Shown in pieces: positions 43,284 to 59,590 of a stretch of DNA of 64,000 nt. Source of the stretch: an uncultured Gemmatimonadota bacterium (GTDB lineage: Bacteria > JAAXHH01); the NCBI GenBank assembly GCA_951812955.1, contig OX638340.1:1728001-1792000 (forward strand), given 5' to 3'. The position numbers and the translations under genes are program-made. Under the pieces are notes generated by a model. It was not told the DNA's origin. It saw only the letters and a list, made by a program, of their open reading frames with translations, and did not search any database. Numbering within the stretch: the stretch's first letter is position 1; each line of letters begins with the position of its first letter.

Positions 43284-43947
43284 AAATAAGATCCTGACCA
43301 GGCGGATCCAGGGATCATCGGACTTATATCTTCGGTCTTATATCTTCGGTCTTAAATTTCTCGTCGATTTAAGAGTAAACCCGATATGCCCAGACCTACT
43401 GCTTTTCTCGCAACATAGCCTTGATTTCAGACACCTCGGATTCGATGTTTTTCAAGCTGCCTTTGATTTCAGTTACAAGGGCGTTTGTTTCGGCCCACAG
43501 ATCTGGAATCTTGCCGAATACATTTGCTTGCTGACCAACCTTTTTTGATAACCAGTTCATCGGCATCCTCTTTCATTTTCGAAATGTCTTAACGGGTGGC
43601 CGTGTTATTGAGTCCTTCCCATCTATCCGTCCTAACACTGCTATTTCGATACTATTGCGTTTTACAGGCCGAAGTAAAGAAGATCCTGAACTCATCTGAT
43701 GAATCAGCGGATTTCTGCCTTTGTCATTTCTGATTCTCCAGGTGTTCTTCCGTTTTCTGGTTCACTCGTTTGATCACGTAACCTTGAAATCGGTGGCGCA
43801 AATTCCGTGAATGTATAACCTCACTAGAATACAGTGGACTAGAAGCGAGATTTCTCGTGTTTTTATCAGAATTGTGAGTAAATGTTAACATTGAAAAACT
43901 AGGTTCCTTTATCTTTCTCCTCCCTTTATAACACAACTGAACGTTCG

Positions 43948-43985
43948 AGAATTACCCATACACAGGTGAATTACCCATACACAGG
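43948..43985. repeat. Perfect 19-bp direct repeat GAATTACCCATACACAGGT x2, 30 bp upstream of hsdR
   Basis: Copies at 43948-43966 and 43967-43985. Confidence 0.85.
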
Positions 43986-44015
43986 TATAGATCAAAAGCA
44001 AAACGGATATACAGC

Positions 44016-46781
44016 ATGCAGAGCGCCAACCAAACACCTGAACAGAAGGCACGAGACATCATCGACGTCAGGCTGGAACGCGCTGGCTGGAACTTACAGT
44101 CGAAGAACGAGATCGACTTCAGCGCTGGTCGCGGTATTGCCGTTCGCGAGTATCCGACAGACATAGGCCCCGCGGATTACGTCCTTTTTGTCGACAAGAA
44201 ACCAACCGGCGTGGTTGAGGCCAAACCTGCCACGCAGGGTCAAAATATCACGACTGTCGAGGAGCAGTCATCTGGTTATGCCAATGCCAACCTCAAGTGG
44301 GTAGACAACAAAGAGCCACTCCCCTTTGTCTACGAATCTACCGGCGAGCTCACGAGGTTCACCGACAGTCGCGACCCGAATCCTCGCTCACGAGAAGTGT
44401 TCAGCTTCCATCGGCCAGAGACCATGGCGAACTGGCTCAGCCAGTCCAATCCACTGCGTGAGCGGCTCCAGGGGCTGCCGGAATTGGATGTCAAAGGACT
44501 CAGGGCGTGCCAGATAAACGCCATCGAGAACCTTGAAACATCCTTCAAAAAGGACCACCCTCGCGCCCTCATTCAGATGGCTACCGGCTCCGGTAAAACC
44601 TACACAGCCATTACCTCGATCTACCGACTGCTCAAGCACGCTGACGCCAGGCGAGTCCTCTTCCTTGTAGACACCAGAAACCTCGGCGAACAGGCCGAAC
44701 AGGAATTCATGGCCTACGTGCCCGGTGACGACAACCGCAAGTTCACCGAGCTGTACAACGTCCAGCGCCTCAAATCGTCCTACGTCGCCAACGACAGCCA
44801 GGTCTGCATCAGCACGATCCAGCGTATGTATTCGATTCTGAGGGACGAGGAACTGGATGACGCTACAGAGCAAATCAACCCGGCGGAAATGGTGCAGCCC
44901 AAAAAACCAGTGCCGGTTGCCTATAACGAGAAGATCCCACCGGAGTTCTTCGACTTCATCATCATCGACGAATGCCACCGCTCGATTTACAACCTGTGGC
45001 GGCAAGTCCTCGAGTATTTTGATGCCTATCTCATCGGCCTGACTGCTACGCCGGACAACCGAACCTATGGATTCTTCCGAAAGAACGTGGTCAGTGAATA
45101 CCCACATGAGGAAGCCGTCGCCGACGGCGTAAACGTCGGCAACGAAGTCTATGTCATCGACACGGAAAGGACAAAGCACGGCGGAAGACTCAAGGCGGAG
45201 CAGCAAGTTGAAAAACGCGAGCGCCTGACGCGGCTCAAACGCTGGGAGATTCAGGACGAGGACGTCACCTACACCGCCAAGGAACTCGACCGGTCCGTCG
45301 TCAACCCCGACCAGATCCGCACCGTCATCCGCACTTTCCGTGACAAACTGCCTGAGATATTCCCGGGCCGCGCCGAAGTCCCGAAGACGCTCGTTTTTGC
45401 AAAGACCGACAGCCATGCCGACGACGTCATCCAGACCGTGCGCGAAGAATTCGGCGAAAGTAACGAGTTCTGCAAGAAGGTCACTTACAAAACCGAAGAA
45501 GACCCGAAATCCGTCCTCGCCCAGTTCCGCAACGACTACTATCCGCGCATCGCGGTAACCGTGGATATGATCGCCACGGGTACCGACGTAAAGCCGCTCG
45601 AATGCCTGCTCTTCATGCGTGACGTGAGGAGCCGTAACTATTTCGAGCAGATGAAAGGTCGTGGCACCCGCACCCTCGACCATGACGATCTCAGACAGGT
45701 CTCGCCCTCCGCCGCCAGCGGAAAGACCCACTACGTGATCGTGGACACCGTAGGGGTCACGAAATCGCTCAAGACCGCCAGCCAGCCGCTCGTCACCAAG
45801 CCCTCCGTGCCACTCAGGGACCTCCTCATGGGGGTGATGATGGGCGCATGCGATGAAGACACGGTGAGTTCGCTCGCCGGGCGCCTCGCGCGGCTTGATC
45901 AACAACTCGATTCCGCCGATAAAGAGCGGATCAAGAAGCAAGCCGGCGGTATCGAACTCACTCAAATCGTTGGCGATCTACTTGCCGCCATCGACCCTGA
46001 TCGCATTCAGGAAAAGGCGCATGGAATCGAACCCGTGCCCGACGGTGTTGAACCACCACCTGCCGTTTGCGAGAAGGCCCGGGAGCAGCTGGTCCATGAC
46101 GCAGCCGACGTGTTCAACGGCGAACTGGTCGAATTGATCGACTCGATACGTCGCGACAAGGATCAGACGATCGACCATGACAGCTTGGACAAGGTAACCC
46201 GCGCCGAATGGGAAGGCGACACGCGCGAGAACGCCGAAGCCATAGCGCAGGACTTCCGGCAGTATCTCGAAGCGAATCGCGATGAGATCGAAGCGCTGAC
46301 CATCTTCTTCGCCCAACCGCACCGTCGCCGGGAGTTGACGTACGCCATGATTCGTGAAGTCTTCGATAGACTGAAGAGCGACCAGCCTCGACTGGTCCCA
46401 TTACGGGTCTGGCAGGCCTATGTTCTGCTCGACGAATACAAAGGCGGTCAGCCAATCAGCGAACTGACTGCGCTTGTAGCGTTGATTCGCCGTGCCTGTG
46501 GCATCGATGGAAAGCTTTCGCCCTATTCGGAAACCGTGCGCCGGAATTTCCGGGACTGGATCATGAAGCGACACAGCGGTAGCGGAGAGAAGTTCAACGA
46601 CGAGCAGATGGACTGGCTGCGAATGATCCGCGAACACATCATCACTTCGTTTCATCTTGAACGCGATGATCTGGATTTAGCACCATTCGATAGCAGGGGT
46701 GGAATGGGGCAGATGTACAAGCTCTTCGGTGACCAGATGGATGAATTGATTGGCGAGTTGAATGAGATACTGGCGGCGTAA
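44016..46781 (+). CDS. hsdR: Type I restriction enzyme R (endonuclease/translocase) subunit
   Basis: N-terminal PD-(D/E)xK nuclease core (D...VVEAKP). SF2 helicase motif I QMATGSGKTYTAI and motif II DECHRS. 921 aa. Confidence 0.93.
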   Translation: MQSANQTPEQKARDIIDVRLERAGWNLQSKNEIDFSAGRGIAVREYPTDIGPADYVLFVDKKPTGVVEAKPATQGQNITTVEEQSSGYANANLKWVDNKEPLPFVYESTGELTRFTDSRDPNPRSREVFSFHRPETMANWLSQSNPLRERLQGLPELDVKGLRACQINAIENLETSFKKDHPRALIQMATGSGKTYTAITSIYRLLKHADARRVLFLVDTRNLGEQAEQEFMAYVPGDDNRKFTELYNVQRLKSSYVANDSQVCISTIQRMYSILRDEELDDATEQINPAEMVQPKKPVPVAYNEKIPPEFFDFIIIDECHRSIYNLWRQVLEYFDAYLIGLTATPDNRTYGFFRKNVVSEYPHEEAVADGVNVGNEVYVIDTERTKHGGRLKAEQQVEKRERLTRLKRWEIQDEDVTYTAKELDRSVVNPDQIRTVIRTFRDKLPEIFPGRAEVPKTLVFAKTDSHADDVIQTVREEFGESNEFCKKVTYKTEEDPKSVLAQFRNDYYPRIAVTVDMIATGTDVKPLECLLFMRDVRSRNYFEQMKGRGTRTLDHDDLRQVSPSAASGKTHYVIVDTVGVTKSLKTASQPLVTKPSVPLRDLLMGVMMGACDEDTVSSLAGRLARLDQQLDSADKERIKKQAGGIELTQIVGDLLAAIDPDRIQEKAHGIEPVPDGVEPPPAVCEKAREQLVHDAADVFNGELVELIDSIRRDKDQTIDHDSLDKVTRAEWEGDTRENAEAIAQDFRQYLEANRDEIEALTIFFAQPHRRRELTYAMIREVFDRLKSDQPRLVPLRVWQAYVLLDEYKGGQPISELTALVALIRRACGIDGKLSPYSETVRRNFRDWIMKRHSGSGEKFNDEQMDWLRMIREHIITSFHLERDDLDLAPFDSRGGMGQMYKLFGDQMDELIGELNEILAA

Positions 46782-46928
46782 GTCGGTCTTTTGCCAGGCT
46801 TCTTACTGCTGCTCCCTTCTGCCGCACTACTTTACATATTGACCATTATCTTTACATCATGTAGTTTTTCTTGGTATATTATAGCAAGTAAAGAAATTCA
46901 ATAATACTCCAACAATTGATCTGCATCA

Positions 46929-47177
46929 TTGGAGCGTATCGTGCCCAAAGTCAGCGCCAAGCGACAGATAACGCTTCCGGCTGATCAGTGCCGTCTGGTC
47001 GGTATCGAGCCAGGCGACGAGTGCCAGAGTTTCGTGGCCGATGGCCGCATTACCATAGTCCGCCAGGAGCCCGGCAGCGCCTGGGGATGTCTGTCGCATC
47101 TCGAAGGGGATCAGACGGTTTCAGACGAGGAGTCGCGCCAGAACGCCATGGAGAGAAAGCGGGACCAAACGCCTTGA
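46929..47177 (+). CDS. vapB: AbrB/SpoVT/MazE-fold antitoxin (VapB-like)
   Basis: Swapped-hairpin segment SAKRQITLPADQCRLVGIEPGDE. The stop overlaps the start of a PIN-domain gene. Confidence 0.7.
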   Translation: MERIVPKVSAKRQITLPADQCRLVGIEPGDECQSFVADGRITIVRQEPGSAWGCLSHLEGDQTVSDEESRQNAMERKRDQTP

Positions 47178-47575
47178 TCGCAATCGACACCAATGTCCTG
47201 CTGCGCTATCTCCTGAAAGATGATGAGGCGCAGGCTGAACGGGCGCGTAGCGTTATCGAGTGCGGCGAGCGCGTGCTCATTACGGACGTGGTACTGGCGG
47301 AAACGGTATGGACGTTAGCCGGCCGCAGATATCGCGCGAGCCGGACCGATCTGATCGATCTGGTCAACAAACTGCTGCAAGATGCCAACCTGTGCTTTGA
47401 GGATGACGAAGTGGTCTGGAGCGCCCTGCAGGCCTTTCGCAGGACGGAGGCGGACTTCGCCGACGCCCTGATCGTGTGCAAGGCCAGAAAGACGGTCCCC
47501 GCCGGCGACGAGTTGAGCGCGGTTTACACCTTCGATGATACCGCCTTGCAGTTGCCCGGTACCGCAGAGCCGTAG
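47174..47575 (+). CDS. vapC: PIN-domain ribonuclease toxin (VapC-like)
   Basis: TTG at 47174 overlaps the vapB TGA (TTGA). PIN acidic residues IAIDTNVLL ... ITDVVLAE ... DFADALI. The track ORF is over-extended upstream. Confidence 0.72.
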   Translation: MIAIDTNVLLRYLLKDDEAQAERARSVIECGERVLITDVVLAETVWTLAGRRYRASRTDLIDLVNKLLQDANLCFEDDEVVWSALQAFRRTEADFADALIVCKARKTVPAGDELSAVYTFDDTALQLPGTAEP

Positions 47576-47689
47576 CGCGTGTCTGGTGTATCGGCGCACG
47601 GGAAGTATGCCGGTATCTTTGTGAGTAGATGGATGAAGTTACTGATGAGTTGAATGAGGCGTTGGTGGCGTCTTTGACGGACTGATTTT

Positions 47690-49231
47690 GTGAATACTAT
47701 GATTCCAAATGGATGGGCCCATACATCGCTTGAAGCGGTGTGTCAGGTTCTCGATTCTAAGCGTATACCGTTAAATAACAGCGAACGTTCTCGACGTATC
47801 GCTGGTAAGTCCGCTGATGATCTTTACCCCTACTACGGCGCTACAGGTCAAGTCGGTGTAATTGACGATTTTATCTTTGATGGAGAACATGTTTTATTGG
47901 GCGAAGACGGTGCCCCATTTAATGATCCTTTCAAGGTAAAATCTTATCTGGTAGATGGGAAATTCTGGGTCAACAATCATGCTCATATTCTCAAATCAGC
48001 TATCCCAAACAGATATCTATGCCACTATCTCAATCAGATTGACTATTCTGGCTATGTAACAGGAACGACAAGACTGAAGCTTACTCAGACCGCATTAAAG
48101 CGAATTCCTGTTCTTGTTGCTCCCAAAGCCGAACAACACCGCATCGTCGCCAAAATCGAGGAACTGTTTTCCAAACTGGACAAGGGCATTGAGAGCCTGA
48201 AGGCGGCGAGGGCAAAGCTCGATGTCTATCGTCAGGCCGTGCTCAAGCACGCCTTCGAAGGCAAGCTCACGGCCCAGTGGCGCGAAGAGAACAAGGACAA
48301 GCTTGAGACACCCGAGCAATTACTCTCACGCATCAAAAAAGAGCGGGAAGCACGTTATAATAGGCAACTGCAGGAGTGGAAGGACGCCGTCAAGAAATGG
48401 GTGGAAGGCGGTAAGTCAGGAAAGAAGCCGACGAAACCTCCGAAGTTGGAGGAAATACCACACTTATCGATAACCGAAACAGTAACTCTTCCACCCCTCC
48501 CCGCTAATTGGGCTTATTTACACTTGGGGCTTGTGATCGACGAGCCCAAGTACGGTAGTTCGAAGAAATGTAACTACGACTACAAAGGCACAGGGGTTTT
48601 GAGAATACCTAATATCGTCCGAGGTGCAGTCGACACGTCCGATCTCAAAGGGACTCACTTCGAAGAGGACGAGAAACGCGCCTACGGTTTGAGGAGTGGT
48701 GAAATTCTCGTGATCCGATCAAACGGAAGTATCTCCGTAGTAGGTAGGTGCGCTCTAATCTCAAAAGCAGAAGAGCAGTATCTGTACGCTGGTTACCTTA
48801 TCCGCCTACGTAGTAACTTGACCGCGTTGCATCCCGAGTACCTTGTAGCTCTACTGTCAAGCCATCTGTTACGAACTCAAATCGAGCACAAAGCAAAATC
48901 GACTAGCGGTGTCAACAACATAAATTCGGGTGAAATCCAATCGCTCATCGTCCCTTTGTGCAGTCTCAGTGAGCAGGAAATAGTAGTCGAACGACTGTCT
49001 GCAAGTCTATCCTCGATTGACGCTATCAAGGGTGAGATCGACAATCAGCTACTACAAACCGAAGCCCTGCACCAATCCATCCTCAAGAAAGCATTCTCGG
49101 GCCAGCTCGTCCCGCAAGACCCGAATGACGAGCCCGCGTCAATTCTGCTTGAGCGCATCAATGGCGTAAAAGCTGCACTATCTCAAAACAACACACAGAG
49201 AAGACGTAGACACGAGAAGGCAACGGCATGA
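47690..49231 (+). CDS. hsdS: Type I restriction-modification specificity subunit
   Basis: Two target-recognition domains separated and followed by conserved coiled-coil spacer repeats (AKIEELFSKLDKGIESL ...). 513 aa. Confidence 0.9.
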   Translation: MNTMIPNGWAHTSLEAVCQVLDSKRIPLNNSERSRRIAGKSADDLYPYYGATGQVGVIDDFIFDGEHVLLGEDGAPFNDPFKVKSYLVDGKFWVNNHAHILKSAIPNRYLCHYLNQIDYSGYVTGTTRLKLTQTALKRIPVLVAPKAEQHRIVAKIEELFSKLDKGIESLKAARAKLDVYRQAVLKHAFEGKLTAQWREENKDKLETPEQLLSRIKKEREARYNRQLQEWKDAVKKWVEGGKSGKKPTKPPKLEEIPHLSITETVTLPPLPANWAYLHLGLVIDEPKYGSSKKCNYDYKGTGVLRIPNIVRGAVDTSDLKGTHFEEDEKRAYGLRSGEILVIRSNGSISVVGRCALISKAEEQYLYAGYLIRLRSNLTALHPEYLVALLSSHLLRTQIEHKAKSTSGVNNINSGEIQSLIVPLCSLSEQEIVVERLSASLSSIDAIKGEIDNQLLQTEALHQSILKKAFSGQLVPQDPNDEPASILLERINGVKAALSQNNTQRRRRHEKATA

Positions 49232-49983
49232 CCGGCAAACTTGCCATCAACATCGATAACCTGCTGCGCCAGCGTGCCATCGAAGAGGCGCTGGTGAACG
49301 CCATCGACCATCGCTCATACGAGGAGCGGGAGCCGGTTGAAGTTCGGATCACCCGCGATGAGTTGCTGGTCCTGAGTTATCCCGGGGCGGACCGCTCCAT
49401 CCGTATGGACGACTTCAAGCAGGGGCAGGCCGTGAGCAGGCGCTACCGGAACCGGCGAATTGGTGAGTTTCTGAAGGAACTCGACCTCGCCGAGGCCTGC
49501 TCAACCGGGGTGCCGAAGATTTTCACGGCCATGCAGCAGAACGGCTCACCGGAACCCATCTTCGAAAGCGACGAGAACCGGACCTGGTTTCGCGTGCGCC
49601 TGCCGGTGCATGAACGGGCATTACTTGCCACGACCGACCAGGATACCATACATGATACCCAACATGATAACTCATTGATAAATAAAAGGAAAAGTCACGG
49701 TACCCAACACGGTACCCAACATGATACCCAACATGATATCGACCAAGTCGAGCAACTGGTGGCTGTGCTCACTGGAGAGATGAGCCGAGCTAGTATCCAG
49801 GCAGGATTGGAACTCAAAGATCGGCCCCATTTCATCGAATCGTATCTAAAGCCTGCCCTGGAGGCCAAGTTGATTGAAATGACCCTCCCGGACAAACCCA
49901 CCAGTCGCCACCAGCGCTATCGCCTAACTGCCGCTGGAAAGGCTTTAGCTGAGCAAATCAAACGAGAGAACACCGCCAAATGA
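49228..49983 (+). CDS. HATPase_c_4 (RecG-C-terminal-like) plus wHTH small protein embedded in the hsdS-hsdM operon
   Basis: Segment NAIDHRSYEEREPVEVRITRDELLVLSYPG ... WFRVRLPVH matches the C-terminal module of Schlafen/AlbA_2-type putative regulators common in R-M loci. ATGA overlaps at both ends (49228/49231 and 49980/49983). Internal HGTQHGTQHDTQHD repeat. Confidence 0.5.
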   Translation: MTGKLAINIDNLLRQRAIEEALVNAIDHRSYEEREPVEVRITRDELLVLSYPGADRSIRMDDFKQGQAVSRRYRNRRIGEFLKELDLAEACSTGVPKIFTAMQQNGSPEPIFESDENRTWFRVRLPVHERALLATTDQDTIHDTQHDNSLINKRKSHGTQHGTQHDTQHDIDQVEQLVAVLTGEMSRASIQAGLELKDRPHFIESYLKPALEAKLIEMTLPDKPTSRHQRYRLTAAGKALAEQIKRENTAK

Positions 49984-51467: not shown

Positions 51468-51608
51468 GCGGTAGATGAACTTGTTAGGGACTCACTTACC
51501 GCGTATTACGATTATGTTCCGTTTATTTTCACTGTATTGAAGTTACTCCGAAAAACCAGTTAGGTTCGATTCATTTTCCATCGCAAGTATGTAAATCACT
51601 GAATTACT

Positions 51609-53777
51609 ATGAATAGTAACTGCAAAACTGAAGTTCGATCCGAATCTGAAATAGTCACCGATTTAGAGAGTTTGAGCCAGGAAAAAGGGTACATCTATTC
51701 CTTCTGTCGAATGGTTGATGAATACCTGTGGTTGAAACCCAGCGAACCCGAAATCCCTGATTGGCACAGTCAATTAAACATACGTGAGTTAACTTTCTTA
51801 TTAGGGTTAATGGTCAAGTATCAATTGACCATATCTGATTCTCCGACTGAACGGGAGTCTGACCTACATATCGATAAGACCAATGAGTTGTTTCATGAAC
51901 TTCATCAAACTCATGCTTTTCCGAAAACAAAGGAAGTAAACGCCGCCCAAGTGAACTTAGAAGATTGGGAATCGGGGTTGAAAAACACCTATACCGACTG
52001 GATCAAAAGCGGTAAAGGTATCGTCGAGCCGGTTTTTTATGGTGAAGAAGGTGCATACGATTTCCAGTTCCTCAAAATGGCAGCATGGAGGTACAAACTT
52101 GATAATCAGTGGATAAAGTCGAACATAGGTATGGATGTTGATACTTTAACTGATATCGCAGGTAAGATTAAACGACTTACCGAATATCGCGCCAATGATG
52201 TAACCAGGACGTCAGACTTCAGAGATTCATGCTTTCGGTTGATATCAGTCTTCTTAATTAAGCCAGATGGCGTTCCTGGCGCTAATAGAGAAGAAATCGA
52301 AGTCTTTCTTGAAACCTTTTCTGTTGAACCACGGGACGGAGTTAATCAGAACCTTAACACGATTGGTGAATACAACACGGCAGACTCGCACCCCATTATT
52401 AAGATTAACAATGAACTTTATTTCATTCCCATCTACTACAACCTAGCAAAATCCATCTACGAGAACCCCTTCTACTGGATTCTCAAAGACAGTGATTACA
52501 GACAAACAGGACTTCAGAACAGGGGTGATGTTACAGAAGAAATAGTATTCGAACTGTTACGACGAGTTTTTGGTATAGACAACGTTTTTCGCAGGGTAAA
52601 AATAAAACGTGGAAACAGAGACATAACGGATATCGACGTTCTTGCAGTATGTGGGAGTAAAGCTGTCATTGTACAGGTGAAATCTAAGAGACTTACGGTG
52701 CTGTCGAAAGGTGGTGATGGCAAGAGCATAGAGAAGGATTTCAAACAAGCTGTTCAGGATGCTTACACCCAAGCGTTATTGTCGAGAAACTTCCTGCTAG
52801 AGACAGATGAAACACTGACGGTTAATGAAGAAAGGCTAATGCAGGTCAAAGGGAACATCGATGATGCCTATATAATCTGCGCTACTGGTGATCATTATCC
52901 TGCAATTACTATTCAGACAAAGTCATACCTCAAAAAGAAGGCAACCGACCCTTACCCAGTTGTACTAAGCGTTTTTGACCTTGATACTATATCGTTTTAC
53001 CTCAGAGAACCGTATGATTTCATATACTACGTTCGTCAACGCACTATACATGCGGGTCACTTCGAGGCTGATTCAGAAATGGCCTTTCTTGGTTTTCATC
53101 TAAACAAAAAACTATTTCCCACAGATGGATATGATATCACGATTATCCCACAATATTATGCATATCTCATCGATATTAGTTTTCCAGTCCTAAAGGGTGA
53201 GCATCCTATTTCGGATGCAGCATACAAGGTATTCCACAAGTGGAAAAACAACGATTTTGATGAGCTAGTTAATGAAATCAAAGTTAGAAATACCGGTCAT
53301 CCACAACTGACAGATTTGATTTTCTTTTTGTTCGATTTAGCAGGATCAGTAGCCGACAAGATTTTCGAAATCTTCGGCGAAATCAAACGAACCACTCGTG
53401 GTGACCTAAAGCCTCACGATGCTACAATTCCAATAGACCAAGCCGGGAAAGGTATAACACTGTTCTGCTACCCTTCGACGTTAGAACTTAGTGAGACAAT
53501 AATCCAAGATCAGTTTCGAGGCTTTGCAGCTGCTCGGAAATACAAAAGCAAAGCTAATGAATGGTTAGCGCTCGCATCATCCGCACAAAGTTCAAATCTG
53601 TTTGACTGTCTCTGGTATAGTAAAGAAGTATGGTGTTATGATGAGAGTTTCGAGCGTCTATCAAAACACATGATTAAACAAGGACATCCCATTCGTACTG
53701 ACGGACGGAAAATAGGTAGAAATTCACCCTGCCCTTGTGGAAGTGGATTGAAGTTTAAAAAGTGCCACGGAAAATAA
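51609..53777 (+). CDS. Large uncharacterised protein with a NERD-like (PD-(D/E)xK-type) core and a C-terminal SEC-C zinc-binding motif
   Basis: 722 aa, AT-rich. Segment RGNRDITDIDVLAVCGSKAVIVQVKSKR matches the NERD/PD-(D/E)xK D...(E/Q)xK core. The C-terminus GRNSPCPCGSGLKFKKCHGK is a SEC-C (SecA C-terminal-type) metal-binding motif. Confidence 0.6.
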   Translation: MNSNCKTEVRSESEIVTDLESLSQEKGYIYSFCRMVDEYLWLKPSEPEIPDWHSQLNIRELTFLLGLMVKYQLTISDSPTERESDLHIDKTNELFHELHQTHAFPKTKEVNAAQVNLEDWESGLKNTYTDWIKSGKGIVEPVFYGEEGAYDFQFLKMAAWRYKLDNQWIKSNIGMDVDTLTDIAGKIKRLTEYRANDVTRTSDFRDSCFRLISVFLIKPDGVPGANREEIEVFLETFSVEPRDGVNQNLNTIGEYNTADSHPIIKINNELYFIPIYYNLAKSIYENPFYWILKDSDYRQTGLQNRGDVTEEIVFELLRRVFGIDNVFRRVKIKRGNRDITDIDVLAVCGSKAVIVQVKSKRLTVLSKGGDGKSIEKDFKQAVQDAYTQALLSRNFLLETDETLTVNEERLMQVKGNIDDAYIICATGDHYPAITIQTKSYLKKKATDPYPVVLSVFDLDTISFYLREPYDFIYYVRQRTIHAGHFEADSEMAFLGFHLNKKLFPTDGYDITIIPQYYAYLIDISFPVLKGEHPISDAAYKVFHKWKNNDFDELVNEIKVRNTGHPQLTDLIFFLFDLAGSVADKIFEIFGEIKRTTRGDLKPHDATIPIDQAGKGITLFCYPSTLELSETIIQDQFRGFAAARKYKSKANEWLALASSAQSSNLFDCLWYSKEVWCYDESFERLSKHMIKQGHPIRTDGRKIGRNSPCPCGSGLKFKKCHGK

Positions 53778-53847
53778 CATCCGATCCTGAAACTTGATCT
53801 TGCAAGGGTCTGTCACGGAAAGGTTCGGTCATAGAGTATTAAGCTTA

Positions 53848-54918
53848 TTATTCTTCTTGTTCTTCGGGATATGGGAGGACTGGGGCTGTTGTCCAGCCTT
53901 CACGTTCAGGTGAATTATGTCCTGTACATATAGTTCTGCCCTCTGTCGAAACTACTTTCGCCCCACGGTGTATACAAGCCCGAATAACTGCTTTTCTAGG
54001 GTGATCCTCGTCTTCTTTAGACGCACTTATAATTGCGTTAAAATGTTCGTTTCCCTCTTCTTGCTTCTCTGGCAGTCGCTTACCCAGCAATCTGTCAAGT
54101 ATCTCCGTTGATAAATTGCGTCGTGATCCGTGGTGCGGGACCTGAAAATGGTCAATTCCTGGAAGTGTCAGTCCTACTGATGGCGCATAATCCAGTGCCT
54201 CGGTAAGTGCACCTCGTCCTGCATCCGCAGTCAGTAATACCTTTTTCTCGCAAAGATTAGCATACTGGATCACACTCATCTCATTTTCAAAGCTAGTTTC
54301 TTCCGGTGAAAACGTTTCTTCACCCCATGCAGATCTTATAAACGAAACAACACTTTTTACGAAAGCACGTCCATGTCCTAACAATGATTGAGCTGTCCCT
54401 TCCGGAGTTCTATCGGATTCAACAATGAGATTCAGATACCTTTCTTTTGATGGTGCAAGGACCGTGAACTCTCCGATTTGTTCTCCTTGAAATGGTGCCA
54501 ATATCGGTATCTCTCGTGCCTTAGCAATCTCTTCAAGTTCGGCAATGTTTGGGTATATTTCCTTTAGCCTACGAACCAGATTCTCCACATTTGTAAAACG
54601 AGCAAACCGGTCAATTAACTCATCTGCATATAGCCATGGTCGTAACATCCACAACTCTGAGACGCTAAATGCTTCGAGGACTTTTCGTAGCCCGCCTGTA
54701 TGGTCGCCATCGGAATGACTGGCTATAACGGCATCAATCGTGCTAGGGTCATCATAATACTTTTTGATATGCTCAATTACAATGTCTCCAGAATCCTGAA
54801 ATCCTCCATCAGTTACGTGAACTCTCTTGACACCAGCTATGGAATACCGAAGTGGTATTGCATCCCCGCTCTTGCTTGACTTTACGTCAAGGAAATCAAT
54901 TTCAAAAAAGTATGACAT
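53848..54918 (-). CDS. Metallo-beta-lactamase-fold hydrolase, ComEC-C-terminal-like (putative nuclease)
   Basis: MBL motifs HVTDGG (D), ASHSDGDHTGG (variant HxHxDH), LLTADAG, and a terminal VPHHGS motif reminiscent of ComEC/Rec2-type MBL domains. 356 aa, AT-rich. Confidence 0.65.
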   Translation of the reverse strand: MSYFFEIDFLDVKSSKSGDAIPLRYSIAGVKRVHVTDGGFQDSGDIVIEHIKKYYDDPSTIDAVIASHSDGDHTGGLRKVLEAFSVSELWMLRPWLYADELIDRFARFTNVENLVRRLKEIYPNIAELEEIAKAREIPILAPFQGEQIGEFTVLAPSKERYLNLIVESDRTPEGTAQSLLGHGRAFVKSVVSFIRSAWGEETFSPEETSFENEMSVIQYANLCEKKVLLTADAGRGALTEALDYAPSVGLTLPGIDHFQVPHHGSRRNLSTEILDRLLGKRLPEKQEEGNEHFNAIISASKEDEDHPRKAVIRACIHRGAKVVSTEGRTICTGHNSPEREGWTTAPVLPYPEEQEE

Positions 54919-54921
54919 ATG

Positions 54922-55422
54922 CTACTCTTGCTCCTTGATTTTAGCGTTTCTTACGCGCTTAGCTACATATTGAGTCTGTTTTCTATAAGAGAATAAAAAT
55001 ATCAACAATAACCCCGCCAAAATTATTAAAACTATTTCATCATCACTTATAGACCACAAATGCTTCAACTCGTCAAAGATTTTGAGGAAAACTAACACAA
55101 TCACTAGCGAACTCAGCGTACGATACATGTTGTTCTGTTCTGACAAGACCTCGATCTTTGAATCCACTTCTACTGCTTCCAGATAATCCTTGTAGTCTGC
55201 GAACCGAACAAATTTGATCTTTTTGAGTAGGGGTTCCAATATCAACGATCCAATCCTGCTAATGACCAACCCTGCCATGTAGTATATAAACACTCCTATG
55301 ATCCAGTCCTTATGGACTAATGAAAATGAGGTGATTTGTTCTCCCAGACCAGCAAATAGAACTCCAGGAAGTAGATAGTTAAAAATGTTATATGACGACA
55401 GCTTTTCAATTACAGTTTTCAT
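54922..55422 (-). CDS. Small polytopic membrane protein, first gene of a two-gene operon with the MBL-fold hydrolase
   Basis: 166 aa with about 4 hydrophobic helices (LLPGVLFAGL, IIGVFIYYMAGLVI, LSSLVIVLVFL, IVLIILAGLLLIFLF). Its stop lies 3 nt before the MBL gene start. Confidence 0.6.
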   Translation of the reverse strand: MKTVIEKLSSYNIFNYLLPGVLFAGLGEQITSFSLVHKDWIIGVFIYYMAGLVISRIGSLILEPLLKKIKFVRFADYKDYLEAVEVDSKIEVLSEQNNMYRTLSSLVIVLVFLKIFDELKHLWSISDDEIVLIILAGLLLIFLFSYRKQTQYVAKRVRNAKIKEQE

Positions 55423-56413
55423 CAGGTTTGCCTTTTTGTTTTATTGCCTAAAACATCCTCCATAACAACAAAATCTAATGTACACAACTAATCGTCGTAC
55501 TAGCTAGTAAGTGAAACTTCCACTCCTATCCTGCTTTAAAATGGTATGTCAACACCAGAAGTGATTTTTGTACAGCACCTAATTGGGTAGTGATATGTTT
55601 TTAAATCTCGTTGAATGTAACCCTAATGTATCGACAAATCCCGATTATTTACAAGTAATTAACCCGTAGATTGCCTCTTTAAACAGATTGACATGGGAGG
55701 TTCTACATGGTAACCTGAACACGTCAACGATTCCAATTCGGCTCGAGCCGGGTATTCTGCTGAATATAGAACCCACAAAGGTAGATTTGCAAAACCTCCC
55801 GCAATCTTTAGGTGGAGCGTTGACACTGCCCGTCACCAACAAACAGATTGGTGCTAAAGCTGGGGTTCGCCATGAGGGTTTTCGGTACCATAGTACTGTG
55901 GGTGTTAGCACTGTAGGAACTTAGATGTTCATAGTTGCCATGTTTTATTCCAATTCGGTTTCCTAGGAGCTAGAGCAGGACAATCTCGATTTAGTAGCAA
56001 AGGAACATCAGGTCTCTGTTTTGGAGAATACCCTTGAGAAGTTGAGGGCTCAAACCAACTTGGTGGATGAACTGACGGCCGTTCAGATAGAAAACATCAA
56101 ACTGATGGATAAGTTGATCAAAGCGAACAACGACTAGATTAATATGGTAAACAAGCATTTCATAAAGCATAGGTACCGTCCCATTGACCGGGGAGGGTTA
56201 GATTGCAACTAAGTCTTAGGATTGGTCGCCAGAGACTGAACGGTTCGGTGCCCTGATTGCGTGGTTGAATGGTCAAGTTCGAGGAAATTGACAAGCAGTT
56301 CGACCGGGTGGATGTACCACTGGACGTGCTGGTGCTGAACATGCGTGAACTCAGAACCGATGTGACAGATGGTCTTAGAAAACACGCAATAGAAAGATAG
56401 GAGGGAGTGAAGA

Positions 56414-57151
56414 ATGGAAAATGACGGACAACTGGAACAGATTATCGAACTGTTGATGGACTTAAATTCCCACATGGCAGACCTTAAAGAACTCATCAAG
56501 GTTTCAAACAATCAACTGGATATCATCAAAAGTTACTTGGACAGCATAGATCGTAATTCAGCATAGGAGTCAATATGTCGTTGGGAGGATATACGTATAT
56601 AGCGGACACTGAGACATTGAAATCAAACTACGAGTTATTGCAGAAAAGCCTTATTCAACTTATCAACGAGACGAATAGTGCTGAAATAATGCTCAAGGCG
56701 ATTTCGTTAATGATCGAACTAGATTCCACCTATACCAAGGGAAATAGGTGAAGGGGTCTTTATGCCCACAGGACCGAAGGGCGAGAAGCGGCCTCGTGAC
56801 TTCGTCGGATCGGTCATTACAGTCGGCAAGATCACCACTGGTTTAATAGAAGAGACCAGAGTAAGCCCTGCCAAGTAAAATGCCGGAACTAGGCCAGGTC
56901 GATACGACTGACCGCGTCATGCCGGACCGAGATCGGCTGGTATGCCGGCGAATGTGCGGTGGGGAGGTCAAAGTACCAGATAGCGGAGGATTGACATGAA
57001 GCAACTGGAGCAGAAGGATATTAAGATCGCATTGGATAGGCTCAATGCCGAAATAGAACAAAAGCAACGCACGGTGGACCATTATCAAGGTGAATTGGAT
57101 AGCCTTAAAAACGTTGCGGAGCTTTTGGAGTCTCTTCTGGGATCACAGTAA
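56414..57151 (+). CDS. Cluster of four tiny AT-rich ORFs (50, 58, 38 and 51 aa), coiled-coil-like, each with an RBS
   Basis: ORFs at 56414-56566 (AGGAGGGAG RBS), 56575-56751, 56762-56878 and 56996-57151 (GGAGGA RBS). All are below the 60-aa track cutoff and were translated by hand. Confidence 0.3.
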
Positions 57152-57453
57152 ACTGATACTGGTGGAAGTCAGTATGGATTTTGGAAGAATTTAAGATCGT
57201 ACTCGAAATCGTAAGGACATTGCTTGGCCCATGATTGAAAGGAGGTCATGATGGACAGGTACAAAGGAATGTATCCGATTCCAATAAATAGAGAAATCAT
57301 TGAGACCAAGAGGAAGCATTGGGAAGTCCTTCTATAAGCAGACCGAGTTCTCGAACAGGCTTCCAAGCAAATTGGTCTCGACACGTCCGAAGAAACATAT
57401 TAAAAATAAGAGAAATGCTTAACACAACGGGTTGGTTTCGTTATACTTAGTAT

Positions 57454-58191
57454 ATGAAAAGGATCATCCGAGACAAGCTACTGTTAATGCTGAACATGCT
57501 GTTAGAAGTGTCTTCGATAAGTTCTATCGCTAGGATCGTCGGGGTCAACTACATCACCGTTCAGAAACTCATGCTGGATTCCGTTCAGGTGTGCAAAATC
57601 TTCCACCATAAAACCGTAATGGATGAAGACGCCAAGCAAATACAATGCGACAAATATGGAACTTCGTTTAGAACAAGGTCCAATGCGGTCTGGACGTAGA
57701 CGGCCATCCGGCAAGACACCAAGTTTATTCTGGCTTTCAAGGACGGAGACAGAACCAACGAAACCGCCAAGACGCTATTCGACGATCTGATGACGCGGCT
57801 GCGAAACAAGATGTGGATCCGGACGGACAGGCTTCCTTCCTACTCAGGGGCGATATGGGACTCGTTTTTCGTGTCTGCCACACATCAATTAGCGGGCGCC
57901 GCCGCAGTCTAATACTCCAACATAGAGCGCCAGAATCTCAACATGCACATGGGAGTGTGAAGGTACACCCGAGCGACCGATGCGTTCTCTAAGAAGATCG
58001 ACTATCTATACAACCTGCTCTCATTGTACTTCGTCTTCTACAACTTTATCCGAAAGCATCTGCTACTTGGCATGACTCTCGCTCAGGGAATCGGCCTTTC
58101 TGGTGAAACCCGCGACCTGGGTAAGATACTTGATGTGGTGGACGAAGCAGCCCCACTTCCGAACAGGCCGAAGACGTACAGAAAGTGCTAG
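57454..58191 (+). mobile_element. Degenerate IS1-family insertion sequence (InsA-like ORF intact, InsB region disrupted by stops/frameshifts)
   Basis: InsA-like HTH LLEVSSISSIARIVGVNYITVQKL. InsB-like segments in other frames: MWIRTDRLPSY (cf. IS1 TDGWPxY) and IERQNLNMH...AFSKKIDYLYN (cf. IS1 IERHNLNLRQHLARL..SLSFSKS), interrupted by stop codons. Confidence 0.6.
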
Positions 58192-58550
58192 GAACATCAT
58201 TCATTCTTTTGTCACAAGGAGTATTCACTGTGGATATGCGTAAACTTACGGTTAAAATATCTGATCCCAATGAGGAAGATTCATCGGGGTTTTTAGTTGA
58301 GGCTGTACCGATTGGGGCAAGCCTCGTCTTGACATCAGTAGGATACATCAGATTGAGGGCAGTGAGTGAAAGAACGGATGTATACGGTCTCGCTATTTTG
58401 GAGTTAATTCCTTCTGCAAAGTTGAATGGCTTGTATTACAGGATCAATATCTCTGACGGTAGCGCGAGTTACTCACGCTTTATCATAATGCCGAACGAAG
58501 ACGTCAATCTGCATGATTTAATGTTGTATGAAGAGATGCCGGAAGGCTGA
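58185..58550 (+). CDS. Hypothetical protein, AT-rich, last ORF of the island
   Basis: 121-aa ORF abutting the IS1 remnant, with no recognisable motifs. A more likely start is MRKLTVK at 58236. Confidence 0.3.
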   Translation: MLGTSFILLSQGVFTVDMRKLTVKISDPNEEDSSGFLVEAVPIGASLVLTSVGYIRLRAVSERTDVYGLAILELIPSAKLNGLYYRINISDGSASYSRFIIMPNEDVNLHDLMLYEEMPEG

Positions 58551-58756
58551 AGGCTAAATTACCGATAACATACAATCCTTAGTACTACCTTAATTGAATG
58601 ATAGCGGTACCTAGAGTTGCTTGTAATCGGGCTCTCACAATCTCGTTTAAAAATTGGTCAACAATCAATGTGCTCTTAACACAGTGCAATTATACACCGC
58701 ACGTTCATCGAGAAACCACATTACTTGATACAACCTCGACTACACGATAAGGCTTT

Positions 58757-59539
58757 TTACTCACACCCCACCCCCACCTCGATCCCGATCGGGCAGTGAT
58801 CCGAACCCATGACGTCCGGCATGATCCACGCGTTGGAGACGGAAGGCATCAGGTCTTCGGTCACGTAGAAGTAATCGATCCGCCAGCCCACATTCCGCTT
58901 TCTCGCTCCGGACATGAGGTGCCACCAGGTATAGTTATCCGGTCCCTCGTCGTATTGCCTGAAGGTATCTACGTACCCCTGTTCGACGATCTTGTCGATC
59001 CAAGCGCGCTCCTTGGGGAGGAACCCGGATATTTTCACGTTGTCCTTGGGGCGGGCGAGGTCGATTTCCCTGTGGGCGGTGTTCACGTCGCCGCAGATGA
59101 CGAGCTTCTTGCCGTCCGCACGCAGCGATTCCCAATGGGCCAGGATGGCCGCGTAGAAATCCATCTTGTACTTCAGCCTTGTCGCATTCTGCTTGCCGTT
59201 CGGAAAATAGACGTTGAACAGCGTGAAATCGGGGTATTCCAGAACCAGTGTCCGGCCTTCGGAATCGAAACGCTCCTCGCCGAATCCCTTGTGCACGCTG
59301 ATGGGCTCGTGGCGTGAGTAGACACCGACTCCGCTGTATCCCTTCTTCTCCGCTTCAGACCAGTAACTTGTGTATCCGTCGACGTCCGTAATCTTGGCAT
59401 CCAGTTGCGATTCCTGGGACTTGGTCTCCTGGATACACAGGATATCGGGTGCCTCGCCCTGCAACCATTCTATGAATCCCTTTTTCGCCACCGCCCTGAC
59501 CCCGTTCACGTTCCAGCTCAACAGTTTCCATGAAGACAT
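58757..59539 (-). CDS. xth: Exodeoxyribonuclease III
   Basis: EEP-fold motifs WNVNG, CIQETK, and the C-terminal SDHCP. 260 aa. Confidence 0.95.
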   Translation of the reverse strand: MSSWKLLSWNVNGVRAVAKKGFIEWLQGEAPDILCIQETKSQESQLDAKITDVDGYTSYWSEAEKKGYSGVGVYSRHEPISVHKGFGEERFDSEGRTLVLEYPDFTLFNVYFPNGKQNATRLKYKMDFYAAILAHWESLRADGKKLVICGDVNTAHREIDLARPKDNVKISGFLPKERAWIDKIVEQGYVDTFRQYDEGPDNYTWWHLMSGARKRNVGWRIDYFYVTEDLMPSVSNAWIMPDVMGSDHCPIGIEVGVGCE

Positions 59540-59590
59540 GAATTACACCTTTCCTGGTTAAATCGTAAGTTGGTATGATCCAGTGCTCGG

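What the first reader, a model, noticed from the sequence alone, without database searches (positions are those of the whole stretch)
43284..58756. AT-rich genomic island of about 15 kb carrying R-M, TA, novel genes and an IS remnant
G+C composition drops visibly after the DUF3093-like gene (ends 43283) and returns to genome level at xth (58757). Inside lie hsdR-vapBC-hsdS-X-hsdM, the three novel genes, a cluster of tiny ORFs and a decayed IS1-family element. Coding density also falls between 55.4 and 58.7 kb, where no ORF of convincing length occurs. I could not find a tRNA or obvious flanking direct repeats. The insertion mechanism is therefore unclear.
Basis: seen in the sequence. Interest (0 to 1): 0.55.

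Follow-up and report, generated by a model that had tools for sequence, protein, structure and literature searches.

The report
Variable anti-phage gene island beside xth
The AT-rich 15-kb stretch is real: it fills a chromosomal slot next to the xth gene that holds different anti-phage genes in every related Gemmatimonadota genome examined, which is a well-known kind of genome feature.

Summary
The GC drop is real. The flanks are 0.60 and the island is 0.487, far below every flank window of the same size.

Comparison with nine related Gemmatimonadota assemblies puts the inserted segment at 43874-58764. One relative has an empty site, one has only small genes, and seven carry other cargo, much of it recognisable defence genes. 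All eight relatives in which the xth end was seen diverge exactly at the xth stop codon.

The island is a mosaic:
- An intact-looking type I R-M operon with host-like GC3. It has two guest cassettes: vapBC, flanked by a duplicated hsdR tail, and an internally deleted AlbA_2/HATPase gene.
- A 41%-GC block with a NERD/PD-(D/E)xK + SEC-C nuclease.
- The PADLOC candidate pair PDC-M48.
- 3.3 kb of mostly non-coding DNA with an IS1 transposase pseudogene.

There is no tRNA, integrase or flanking direct repeat. Modules shared with relatives diverge about as much as the core flanks. I infer turnover by homologous recombination at a defence hotspot; this step is not shown.

One feature is unexplained: a perfect 10-nt inverted repeat, TGTGAGTAAA, lies exactly on both borders.

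This is a new member of a known kind and of moderate interest.

The parts
43284..43873 (-). Ancestral AT-rich spacer, not part of the island. It holds a conserved 56-aa coiled-coil gene (43396-43566, minus strand) and a decayed copy of a small coiled-coil/TM gene with its promoter region (43595-43873, minus strand).
   Evidence: Homologous to L001, L003, L083 and L087. GC is 0.427. The L003 alignment shows an in-frame TGA.
43873..43882 (+). Left copy of the perfect 10-nt inverted repeat TGTGAGTAAA, flush with the left border of the island. It is followed by the 12-nt palindrome AATGTTAACATT (43881-43892).
   Evidence: Also present at the same junction in L087.
43874..58764 (.). The inserted island: the cargo of the slot between the small-gene cluster and xth.
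   Evidence: Homology breakpoints against L001, L003, L081, L083, L084, L087 and L089. GC is 0.487.
43949..43986 (+). Exact 19-nt tandem duplication (GAATTACCCATACACAGGT x2) in the hsdR leader.
   Evidence: L087 has a single copy.
44016..46781 (+). hsdR, the type I restriction subunit (921 aa; EcoAI/EcoEI-like).
   Evidence: Pfam HSDR_N, ResIII, Helicase_C and EcoEI_R_C. PADLOC REase_I 1.2e-53. NCBIfam hits. All 8000 scored candidates passed E 1e-100, and the 120 listed are 80-100% identical.
46729..46779 (+). The hsdR 3' tail. This is the first copy of the 51-nt direct repeat that brackets vapBC.
   Evidence: repeat D2, 76% identity.
46941..47177 (+). vapB-like antitoxin (78 aa, GTG start, AbrB-type).
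   Evidence: NCBIfam AbrB domain, 22.4 bits, below the cut-off of 28.3. 89% aa identity to the L081 gene. Start codon read.
47174..47575 (+). vapC PIN-domain toxin (133 aa, TTG start overlapping the vapB stop codon).
   Evidence: Pfam PIN 43.4 bits. 83% aa identity to L081. Sequence read.
47621..47671 (+). Relic second copy of the hsdR 3' tail, with an internal stop codon, just upstream of hsdS.
   Evidence: The same relic lies before hsdS in L088 and after vapC in L081 and L087.
47690..49231 (+). hsdS specificity subunit (513 aa, two target-recognition domains). GC3 is 0.51.
   Evidence: Pfam Methylase_S. PADLOC Specificity_I 1.2e-86. The target-recognition domains differ from those of L087, while the conserved regions match.
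49228..49983 (+). Gene X (251 aa). It is an in-frame internal deletion derivative of a 535-aa AlbA_2 + HATPase_c_4 + Fic-like_C protein and lacks the AlbA_2 domain.
   Evidence: Pfam. Aligns to residues 1-19 and 305-532 of the L087 protein. Contains 12-nt tandem repeats.
49980..51467 (+). hsdM, the type I methyltransferase (495 aa).
   Evidence: Pfam N6_Mtase 242 bits and HsdM_N. PADLOC MTase_I 6.7e-196.
51609..53777 (+). Stand-alone NERD / PD-(D/E)xK nuclease with a C-terminal SEC-C zinc motif (722 aa). It is the cargo gene seen most often in this slot.
53848..54918 (-). PDC-M48B, an MBL-fold metallo-hydrolase (356 aa).
   Evidence: PADLOC PDLC04676, 2.6e-166, full length. Pfam Lactamase_B. 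87% aa identity to L083.
54922..55422 (-). PDC-M48A, a small membrane protein (166 aa).
   Evidence: PADLOC PDLC04670, 9e-63, full length. 86% aa identity to L083.
55450..57450 (.). Window-specific low-GC DNA with no supported gene. It contains only short, frame-shifted, coiled-coil-like fragments on the plus strand (55967-57148).
   Evidence: No Pfam, PHROGs or protein-database hit. No Rfam hit. No similarity to plasmids or to fetched loci. Fragments listed.
57454..58191 (+). IS1-family transposase pseudogene: one reading frame with three in-frame stops. No IS ends were found.
   Evidence: NF033558, 7.4e-16, 58.7 bits, below the cut-off of 100. (DDE_Tnp_IS1, 30 bits, above the cut-off of 24.1). 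(no IS ends).
58230..58550 (+). A 106-aa beta-sandwich protein from a rare small family with the motif MP(D/N)xDVNLHDL.
   Evidence: 8 hits among 1.84 billion representatives. Alignment. Structure model pLDDT 90.7. Weak fold matches to phage neck and tail-fibre proteins.
58756..58765 (-). Right copy of the 10-nt inverted repeat TGTGAGTAAA. It supplies the last two codons and the TAA stop of xth.
58757..59539 (-). xth (exodeoxyribonuclease III family), the conserved right flank. Its stop codon is the common breakpoint in all relatives where this junction was seen.
   Evidence: Pfam Exo_endo_phos..

Best explanation
The segment 43874-58764 is the current cargo of a chromosomal defence-island hotspot in a clade of uncultured Gemmatimonadota. 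The slot lies between the stop codon of xth and a cluster of small coiled-coil genes next to a DUF3093-like gene.

The cargo is a mosaic of at least four modules:
1. A type I R-M operon, hsdR-hsdS-hsdM, which restricts unmethylated incoming DNA. Two guest cassettes sit at its gene junctions: an AbrB/PIN vapBC toxin-antitoxin pair, and an internally deleted, probably defective AlbA_2/HATPase gene.
2. A single-gene PD-(D/E)xK (NERD) nuclease with a SEC-C zinc motif, predicted to be a DNA-cutting effector.
3. The two-gene candidate system PDC-M48: a small membrane protein plus an MBL-fold hydrolase.
4. A 3.3-kb stretch with almost no coding capacity that holds a dead IS1 transposase gene.

What is shown: the slot is variable, the junctions are fixed, and modules are shared with relatives in different combinations. 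What is inferred: modules are gained, swapped and lost by homologous recombination. The recombination would be anchored in the conserved flanks or in modules shared between relatives, after DNA uptake from clade members. It would not involve a dedicated integrase.
For: **Slot variability.** The gene lists are; the DNA comparisons are.

| Relative | Content of the slot |
|---|---|
| L001 | empty |
| L003 | small genes only |
| L002 | Hma system plus a PD-T4-4-like ATPase |
| L081 | vapBC, RHH-PIN, a 357-aa gene, the NERD gene, XhoI R-M, Hachiman |
| L084 | MTase and ResIII genes, an hsdM-tail relic, the NERD gene, XhoI R-M, Hachiman |
| L083 | AbiU2-HEPN, the NERD gene, PDC-M48, a 471-aa gene |
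| L087 | the same R-M operon and vapBC, then other genes |
| L089 | a C5-methylase module, although its xth is 96% identical in DNA |

**Fixed junction.** All eight relatives in which this junction was seen lose homology at the xth stop codon.

**Shared modules diverge about as much as the flanks.**
- L081: flanks 81-90%, vapBC 81.5%, NERD gene 87.2%.
- L083: xth 86.6%, NERD + PDC-M48 block 89.1%.
- L087: flanks about 91%, hsdM 89.1%.

**Relics of cassette replacement.**
- The hsdR tail is duplicated around vapBC.
- L081 keeps the hsdR tail end next to vapBC but has no hsdR.
- L084 keeps an hsdM tail but has no R-M operon.

**No site-specific machinery was found.** There is no tRNA, no direct repeat and no integrase domain in the ORFs scanned.

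**Composition** is atypical.

**Precedent.** Integrase-less core defence hotspots, with recombination or transduction through conserved flanks proposed as the mechanism, are described for P. aeruginosa (PMC10250203).
Against: - Recombination itself was not observed or tested statistically.
- The ancestral state of the slot (empty or filled) is unknown.
- A perfect 10-nt inverted repeat sits exactly on both borders. Plain homologous recombination does not predict this. It hints at a transposition-type or inversion-type event for at least one step.
- The R-M module has host-like GC3, so composition alone does not mark it as foreign.
- The defence function of the NERD/SEC-C gene and of PDC-M48 is untested.
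- L087's right junction could not be fetched.
Confidence: 0.75

Rival explanations
1. The 14.9-kb segment is, or descends from, a discrete transposon-like element with 5'-TG...CA-3' terminal inverted repeats (TGTGAGTAAA ... TTTACTCACA). It would have inserted site-specifically at the end of xth, as Tn7-like elements do next to conserved genes, and later lost its transposition genes.
For: - The 10-nt inverted repeat is perfect.
- Its two copies are the only exact copies in 64 kb.
- Both copies are flush with borders that were defined independently from homology breakpoints.
- My estimate of the chance of this placement is roughly 1e-4 to 1e-5.
- The left copy is conserved in L087 within a 29-nt stretch that is 100% identical.
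- TG/CA termini, and targeting of the 3' side of a conserved gene, are typical of Tn7-like elements that carry defence cargo (own knowledge).
Against: - There is no target-site duplication, and the repeat does not extend beyond 10 nt.
- No repeated transposase-binding motif is visible in the ends.
- The only transposase is a dead IS1 gene located 565 nt inside the right end.
- Relatives with cargo in the same slot have other ends and no analogous inverted repeat.
- Internal modules are shared with relatives piecemeal rather than as a unit.
- The left-end sequence was not found in JGI metagenomes.
Confidence: 0.1
2. The island was acquired recently and as a single block from a distant low-GC donor, in a classical one-step horizontal transfer. 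The differences among relatives would then reflect later deletions.
For: - The whole region has low GC, and 51.5-58.8 kb has very low GC3.
- The island is absent from L001 and L003.
- An IS remnant is present.
Against: - The R-M genes have host-like GC3.
- Shared modules are about as divergent from relatives as the core flanks are, so they predate the split of these lineages or circulate within the clade.
- Relatives carry unrelated cargo rather than subsets of this one. Examples are Hma, Hachiman, XhoI R-M and a C5 methylase.
- The modules occur in different combinations across relatives.
Confidence: 0.08
3. The island is an assembly or binning artefact: a chimeric join in a metagenome-assembled genome.
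For: The source appears to be a metagenome-derived genome. Exact copies of two island proteins sit on a 3.81-Mb contig. Low-GC inserts are a common signature of misassembly.
Against: - Independent assemblies reproduce both junction contexts.
- L087 aligns continuously from the core flank across the left border into hsdR-vapBC.
- L083 has the NERD + PDC-M48 block a few kb from xth.
- L081 and L084 place the NERD gene in the same slot.
Confidence: 0.02

Closest known systems
Core defence hotspots of Pseudomonas aeruginosa (cDHS1/cDHS2; Johnson et al. 2023, PMC10250203)
   Same: - A fixed chromosomal slot lies between conserved core genes.
- Its content differs from genome to genome and is rich in defence systems.
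- There are no obvious mobile-element scars.
- Transfer through the conserved flanks by homologous recombination is proposed.
   Different: - A different phylum (uncultured Gemmatimonadota) and different flanking genes (xth and small coiled-coil genes).
- No flanking non-coding RNA. cDHS2 is flanked by ssrA; none was found here.
- Only ten genomes were compared here, not hundreds.
E. coli defence-island hotspots (Hochhauser, Millman and Sorek 2023, PMC10121019)
   Same: Dedicated integration hotspots with diverse, co-localised defence cargo (abstract read).
   Different: In E. coli the cargo is mostly carried by recognisable mobile elements: prophages, ICEs and transposons. Here the only mobile-element trace is a dead IS1 gene, and no integrase was found.
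Type I R-M operons with embedded guest genes, such as EcoprrI with prrC (own knowledge)
   Same: Accessory toxin or abortive-infection-type genes are inserted between hsd genes and inherited with the operon. In this R-M family the guests are vapBC, an AlbA_2/HATPase gene, and RHH-PIN in L088.
   Different: - The guests here are a PIN toxin-antitoxin pair and a Schlafen/AlbA_2-type protein, not an anticodon nuclease.
- Each guest is bracketed by a duplicated 50-70-nt piece of the neighbouring hsd gene.
- No functional coupling is shown.
Tn7-like transposons carrying defence cargo (own knowledge)
   Same: Insertion immediately beyond the 3' end of a conserved gene, 5'-TG...CA-3' termini, and variable defence cargo.
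   Different: No tnsABC/tniQ genes, no 5-bp target duplication, no multiple TnsB-binding repeats, and only 10 nt of terminal inverted repeat.
PADLOC candidate system PDC-M48
   Same: Both proteins match the PDC-M48A and PDC-M48B models over their full length, and the two genes are adjacent and co-oriented.
   Different: This is a bioinformatic candidate only. No paper in the searched library mentions it, and its function is unproven.

Membership tests
Genomic island (horizontally acquired accessory segment) | Base composition or codon usage deviates from the host genome | tested here: met
   Island GC is 0.487 against 0.60 for the flanks. The lowest 14.9-kb flank window is 0.588. The deviation is strong for 51.5-58.8 kb and for hsdS, and weak for the other R-M genes.
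Genomic island (horizontally acquired accessory segment) | Present or absent among close relatives, with conserved flanks | tested here: met
   L001 has an empty site and L003 has only small genes. The other relatives carry different cargo between the same flanks.
Genomic island (horizontally acquired accessory segment) | Insertion at a tRNA or tmRNA gene with flanking direct repeats | tested here: not met
   ARAGORN found no tRNA or tmRNA in the 64 kb. No direct repeat links the two borders.
Genomic island (horizontally acquired accessory segment) | Integrase or other functional mobility gene | tested here: not met
   No recombinase domain was found in the ORFs scanned. The only mobility gene is an IS1 transposase pseudogene.
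Defence-island hotspot (core defence hotspot type) | The same pair of conserved flanking genes encloses different content in different genomes | tested here: met
   Ten genomes, counting the window, show ten different contents, and eight relatives have a junction at the xth stop codon.
Defence-island hotspot (core defence hotspot type) | Cargo dominated by recognised defence systems | tested here: met
   - Window: type I R-M and PDC-M48.
- Relatives: Hachiman and Hma, XhoI R-M, a C5 methylase, AbiU2-HEPN.
Defence-island hotspot (core defence hotspot type) | Cargo exchanged by homologous recombination through the flanks | not testable with these tools
   The evidence is indirect only: shared modules with flank-like divergence, and relic gene tails. 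A population-scale recombination analysis is needed.
Type I restriction-modification system | HsdR, HsdM and HsdS are all present with their characteristic domains and intact reading frames | tested here: met
   The proteins are 921, 495 and 513 aa, and the closest homologs have the same lengths.
Type I restriction-modification system | Methylation and restriction activity | not testable with these tools
   Needs a methylome analysis or a restriction assay.
VapBC type II toxin-antitoxin | A PIN-domain toxin preceded by a small DNA-binding antitoxin gene that overlaps it | tested here: met
   PIN scores 43.4 bits against a cut-off of 23.6. The start and stop codons overlap as TTGA. The antitoxin's AbrB match is below the curated cut-off: 22.4 against 28.3 bits.
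PDC-M48 (PADLOC candidate defence system) | Both component proteins match the models, and the genes are adjacent | tested here: met
   PDC-M48B matches at 2.6e-166 over residues 1-356 of 357. PDC-M48A matches at 9e-63 over residues 1-162 of 164. The genes are 3 nt apart on the same strand.
PDC-M48 (PADLOC candidate defence system) | Demonstrated protection against phage | not testable with these tools
   No publication was found.
IS1-family insertion sequence | Transposase homologous to IS1 InsAB' | tested here: met
   Pfam DDE_Tnp_IS1 scores 30 bits, above its cut-off of 24.1. NCBIfam transpos_IS1 gives 7.4e-16 but 58.7 bits, below its cut-off of 100.
IS1-family insertion sequence | Intact transposase ORF and terminal inverted repeats | tested here: not met
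   There are three in-frame stop codons, and no inverted repeats bracket the remnant.
Tn7-like / DDE transposon | Terminal inverted repeats with TG...CA ends | tested here: met
   TGTGAGTAAA at 43873-43882 and its reverse complement at 58756-58765. Only 10 nt are repeated.
Tn7-like / DDE transposon | Target-site duplication and element-encoded transposition proteins | tested here: not met
   The flanks (..CAGAAT and CCCCACC..) are unrelated to each other. No tns-like or other intact transposase gene was found.

The most novel reading that the evidence does not exclude
The perfect 10-nt inverted repeat with TG...CA ends, flush with both borders, marks the island of the window/L087 lineage as the product of an unrecognised mobilisation mechanism. 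This would be either a transposon-like element targeted to the xth stop codon and moved in trans, or a transposition-mediated inversion that left an inverted target duplication. In that case some 'integrase-less' defence hotspots would be serviced by a cryptic site-specific system rather than by homologous recombination alone. A second, independent reading is that the NERD/SEC-C nuclease, the cargo gene seen most often in this slot, is a new single-gene anti-phage system.
Probability: 0.12. Interest if true: 0.7.

Novelty: new member of a known kind. Interest (0 to 1): 0.35.

Why it matters
- It documents a hypervariable defence hotspot with no detectable integrase, beside xth, in uncultured Gemmatimonadota. 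As far as my literature searches went, I found no description of defence-island architecture in this phylum.
- The ten different cargo sets seen so far make the slot a natural catalogue for finding new defence genes. Candidates are the NERD/SEC-C nuclease, PDC-M48, and several genes with no domain match (357 aa in L081; 471 aa in L083; 186 and 213 aa in L087).
- Two details bear on the open question of how integrase-less hotspots are filled: the hsd-gene tail duplications around guest cassettes, and the border inverted repeat.
- Otherwise the finding is ordinary. Defence islands and hotspots are well established.

Tried and rejected
- **Exact-protein look-ups failed.** Look-ups of xth, the DUF3093-like gene, the NERD gene, hsdM and P0001 found no record. 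The source genome could not be retrieved.
- **tRNA and RNA families.** Nothing was found.
- **Direct repeats or att-like cores at the borders.** None.
- **Extension of the 10-nt inverted repeat, or repeated binding motifs in the ends.** None.
- **Analogous inverted repeats in L081 and L083.** None.
- **IS1 ends around the remnant.** None.
- **IS1-mediated replicative inversion as the source of the inverted 9-10-nt duplication.** I considered this. From my own knowledge, IS1 makes 9-bp target duplications. I rejected it as unsupported because no IS copy abuts either repeat.
- **Xer/dif-like site at the left end.** I considered and dropped this. The right end has no counterpart of the palindrome.
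- **The 55.45-57.3 kb region.** There was no Pfam, PHROGs or protein-database homolog for ORFs or for a stitched pseudo-protein. There was no plasmid match and no similarity to fetched loci or to the rest of the window. The promoter and terminator scan was at chance level.
- **The 471-aa gene of L083 as the ancestor of the decayed region.** There was no tblastn signal.
- **JGI metagenome scan for the left-end 28-mer.** No hit.
- **Literature search for PDC-M48.** No paper.

Full report
**1. Observation**

A sliding-window profile and direct counts confirm the GC drop.

| Segment | GC |
|---|---|
| Left flank, 1-43283 | 0.600 |
| Right flank, 58765-64000 | 0.606 |
| Island, 43874-58764 | 0.487 |
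| R-M part, 43874-51560 | 0.544 |
| Low-GC part, 51561-58764 | 0.428 |

- Flank windows of 14.9 kb average 0.604 (sd 0.007, minimum 0.588), so the island is far outside the flank range.
- The R-M part has GC3 values inside the host range of 0.73 +/- 0.09 (35 flank ORFs): hsdR 0.71, hsdM 0.78, vapC 0.67, X 0.65. Only hsdS is low, at 0.51.
- The three genes of the low-GC part have GC3 of 0.40, 0.34 and 0.45.
- No tRNA or tmRNA and no Rfam family is present.

**2. Gene content**

Pfam, PADLOC and NCBIfam scans give the following.

- **hsdR** (44016-46781). It has HSDR_N, ResIII, Helicase_C and EcoEI_R_C domains and is EcoAI/EcoEI-like.
- **vapBC.** An AbrB-type vapB (46941-47177) overlaps a PIN vapC (47174-47575). 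Start codons were read.
- **hsdS** (47690-49231).
- **Gene X** (49228-49983), with HATPase_c_4 and Fic-like_C domains.
- **hsdM** (49980-51467).

The three 'novel genes' resolve as follows.

- **51609-53777** is a 722-aa protein with a NERD domain and a C-terminal SEC-C motif.
  - It has more than 440 homologs, none informatively named.
  - Residues D341, D343, Q356 and K358 and the terminal cysteines are invariant.
  - A distant homolog sits in another defence cluster in L085. Another sits alone among housekeeping genes in L086. It is therefore a self-contained single-gene module.
- **53848-54918 and 54922-55422** (minus strand) match the PADLOC candidate system PDC-M48 over their full length. 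PDC-M48B scores 2.6e-166 and PDC-M48A 9e-63. No paper mentions this candidate.

The rest of the island, 55450-58764, is almost gene-free.

- ORFs there, and a pseudo-protein stitched from plus-strand fragments, have no family or database match.
- 57454-58191 is a single reading frame with three in-frame stops that matches IS1 transposase: Pfam 30 bits, above cut-off, and NCBIfam 7.4e-16, below cut-off. It has no recognisable ends.
- 58230-58550 encodes a 106-aa beta-sandwich protein of a rare family. It has weak fold similarity to phage neck and tail-fibre proteins.

**3. Relatives and borders**

A scan of one genome per species with xth found three close Gemmatimonadota relatives, L001-L003. 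Look-ups of NERD and HsdR homologs gave L081-L084 and L087. A metagenome scan gave L089, whose xth is 96% identical in DNA.

The empty-site evidence comes from two relatives.

- In L001, the xth stop is followed after 217 bp by the homolog of the window's 56-aa gene (43396-43566) and then by the DUF3093-like gene. This is an empty site.
- In L003, the sequence that follows xth, after a 10-nt spacer, is homologous to window 43873 downwards.

Two conclusions follow for the window.

- The stretch 43284-43873 is ancestral: a small gene plus a decayed paralog.
- The island starts at 43874.

On the other side, all eight relatives in which the xth end was seen lose homology at the xth stop codon, after the G-rich GAGGTGGGGGTGGGG. 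In the window the island supplies the last two codons and the stop.

**4. The slot is hypervariable**

| Genome | Cargo between the small-gene flank and xth |
|---|---|
| L001 | nothing |
| L003 | small coiled-coil/TM genes |
| L002 | HmaA, a PD-T4-4-like ATPase, HmaB |
| L081 | vapBC, RHH-PIN, a 357-aa gene, NERD/SEC-C, XhoI R-M, Hachiman |
| L084 | large MTase and ResIII genes, an hsdM 3' relic, a 356-aa gene, NERD/SEC-C, XhoI R-M, Hachiman |
| L083 | AbiU2-HEPN genes, NERD/SEC-C, PDC-M48, a 471-aa gene |
| L087 | the same hsdR-vapBC-hsdS-X-hsdM, then unrelated low-GC genes |
| L089 | C5 methylase plus a HATPase_c_3 gene |

Modules shared with the window are about as diverged as the core flanks.

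- L081: flanks 81-90%, vapBC 81.5%, NERD gene 87.2%.
- L083: xth 86.6%, the 3.9-kb NERD + PDC-M48 block 89.1%.
- L087: flanks about 91%, hsdM 89.1%.

So the modules are old residents of the clade that have been re-assorted. They are not a single recent import. Independent assemblies reproduce both junction contexts, which excludes a chimeric assembly.

**5. Traces of cassette exchange**

- vapBC is bracketed by a 51-nt direct repeat of the hsdR 3' tail: 46729-46779 and 47621-47671, 76% identical, with a stop codon in the second copy.
- The same relic tail precedes hsdS in L088, an unrelated 5.0-Mb genome that carries this R-M family at another locus. There an RHH-PIN pair between hsdS and hsdM is bracketed by a duplicated hsdM 5' piece.
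- L081 keeps vapBC with the hsdR tail ends but has no hsdR.
- L084 keeps an hsdM tail without the R-M operon.
- Gene X in the window is an in-frame deletion derivative of the 535-aa AlbA_2-HATPase_c_4-Fic-like_C gene of L087. It keeps residues 1-19 and 305-532.
- The hsdS target-recognition domains differ between the window and L087.

These patterns fit Campbell-type or double-crossover homologous recombination with short homologies. That is an inference.

**6. Mechanism**

No integrase, tRNA or direct repeat was found. The best-supported account is a defence hotspot whose cargo turns over by homologous recombination, anchored in xth, in the small-gene flank, or in shared modules. The same mechanism was proposed for the P. 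aeruginosa core defence hotspots (PMC10250203). It contrasts with the mostly mobile-element-borne E. coli hotspots (PMC10121019).

The predicted functions of the cargo are these.

- The type I R-M system methylates host DNA and restricts unmethylated incoming DNA.
- VapC is a PIN RNase held in check by VapB.
- The NERD/SEC-C protein is a DNA nuclease effector.
- For PDC-M48, I suggest that the membrane protein partners with an MBL-fold hydrolase acting as a nuclease or phosphodiesterase.

All of these functions are inferred from homology.

**7. Unexplained feature**

TGTGAGTAAA occurs exactly twice in the window: at 43873-43882 on the plus strand and at 58756-58765 on the minus strand. These positions are flush with the two borders that were defined independently.

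- Chance placement is about 1e-4 to 1e-5 by my estimate.
- The repeat does not extend and there is no target duplication.
- Relatives with other cargo lack it.
- L087 shares the left copy. Its right junction could not be fetched.
- This leaves a minor rival: a terminal-repeat-bounded, Tn7-like or inversion-derived unit.

**8. Verdict**

- The borders are corrected.
- The cargo genes are identified.
- The island is a mosaic rather than a single insertion.
- The slot is a hotspot.

It is a new member of a known kind, the defence-island hotspot, and of moderate interest.

Noticed in passing
window 43873-43882 and 58756-58765: A perfect 10-nt inverted repeat, TGTGAGTAAA, lies exactly on both island borders. 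These are the only two exact copies in 64 kb. There is no target duplication and the repeat does not extend. The left copy is conserved in L087.
   Followed up: partly
window 46729-46779 and 47621-47671; L088 13053-13120 and 14686-14752: Guest cassettes inside this type I R-M family are bracketed by 50-70-nt duplicated pieces of the neighbouring hsd gene. The cassettes are vapBC here and RHH-PIN in L088. The pattern suggests integration by recombination at short homologies.
   Followed up: partly
window 49228-49983: Gene X is an in-frame internal deletion of a 535-aa AlbA_2/HATPase_c_4/Fic-like_C protein that is intact in L087, and it has lost the AlbA_2 domain. It also carries 12-nt tandem repeats (49642-49738) that encode (D/G)TQH repeats.
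   Followed up: partly
window 43949-43986: An exact 19-nt tandem duplication lies in the hsdR leader. L087 has a single copy, so the duplication is recent.
   Followed up: partly
window 43881-43892: A 12-nt perfect palindrome, AATGTTAACATT, lies immediately inside the left border and upstream of hsdR. It could be an operator site.
   Followed up: no
window 43314-43354: A 14-nt tandem repeat (ATCTTCGGTCTTAT, 2.9 copies) lies just after the DUF3093-like gene.
   Followed up: no
window 43396-43566 and 43595-43873; L003 10887-11582 and 14408-15483; L083 98-598: A family of small coiled-coil proteins, some with a C-terminal TM helix, is expanded next to xth in relatives and partly decayed in the window. 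Pfam similarity to CCDC90-like and XhlA is weak. Function is unknown.
   Followed up: partly
window 58230-58550: A 106-aa beta-sandwich protein belongs to a rare family with only 8 hits among 1.84 billion representatives and a conserved MP(D/N)xDVNLHDL motif. Its fold weakly resembles phage neck and tail-fibre proteins, so it may be a phage remnant.
   Followed up: partly
window 47690-49231 compared with L087 13655-15184: The hsdS target-recognition domains differ between the two closest relatives while the conserved spacer regions match. This implies a change of recognition specificity.
   Followed up: yes
L088 about 9860-9950 and 16990-17060: In an unrelated 5.0-Mb genome the same R-M family sits between housekeeping genes. 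There it is flanked by inverted copies, about 45 nt long, of a GC-rich REP-like palindromic element.
   Followed up: no
window 58766-58790 (xth 3' end): The G-rich tract GAGGTGGGGGTGGGG, which encodes EVGVG, lies immediately before the common breakpoint in all relatives. I did not test whether it promotes recombination.
   Followed up: no
window 6000-7100: A second low-GC patch (0.47) lies far from the island. It contains a 239-aa ORF (6345-7064, minus strand) that I did not run through any family search.
   Followed up: no
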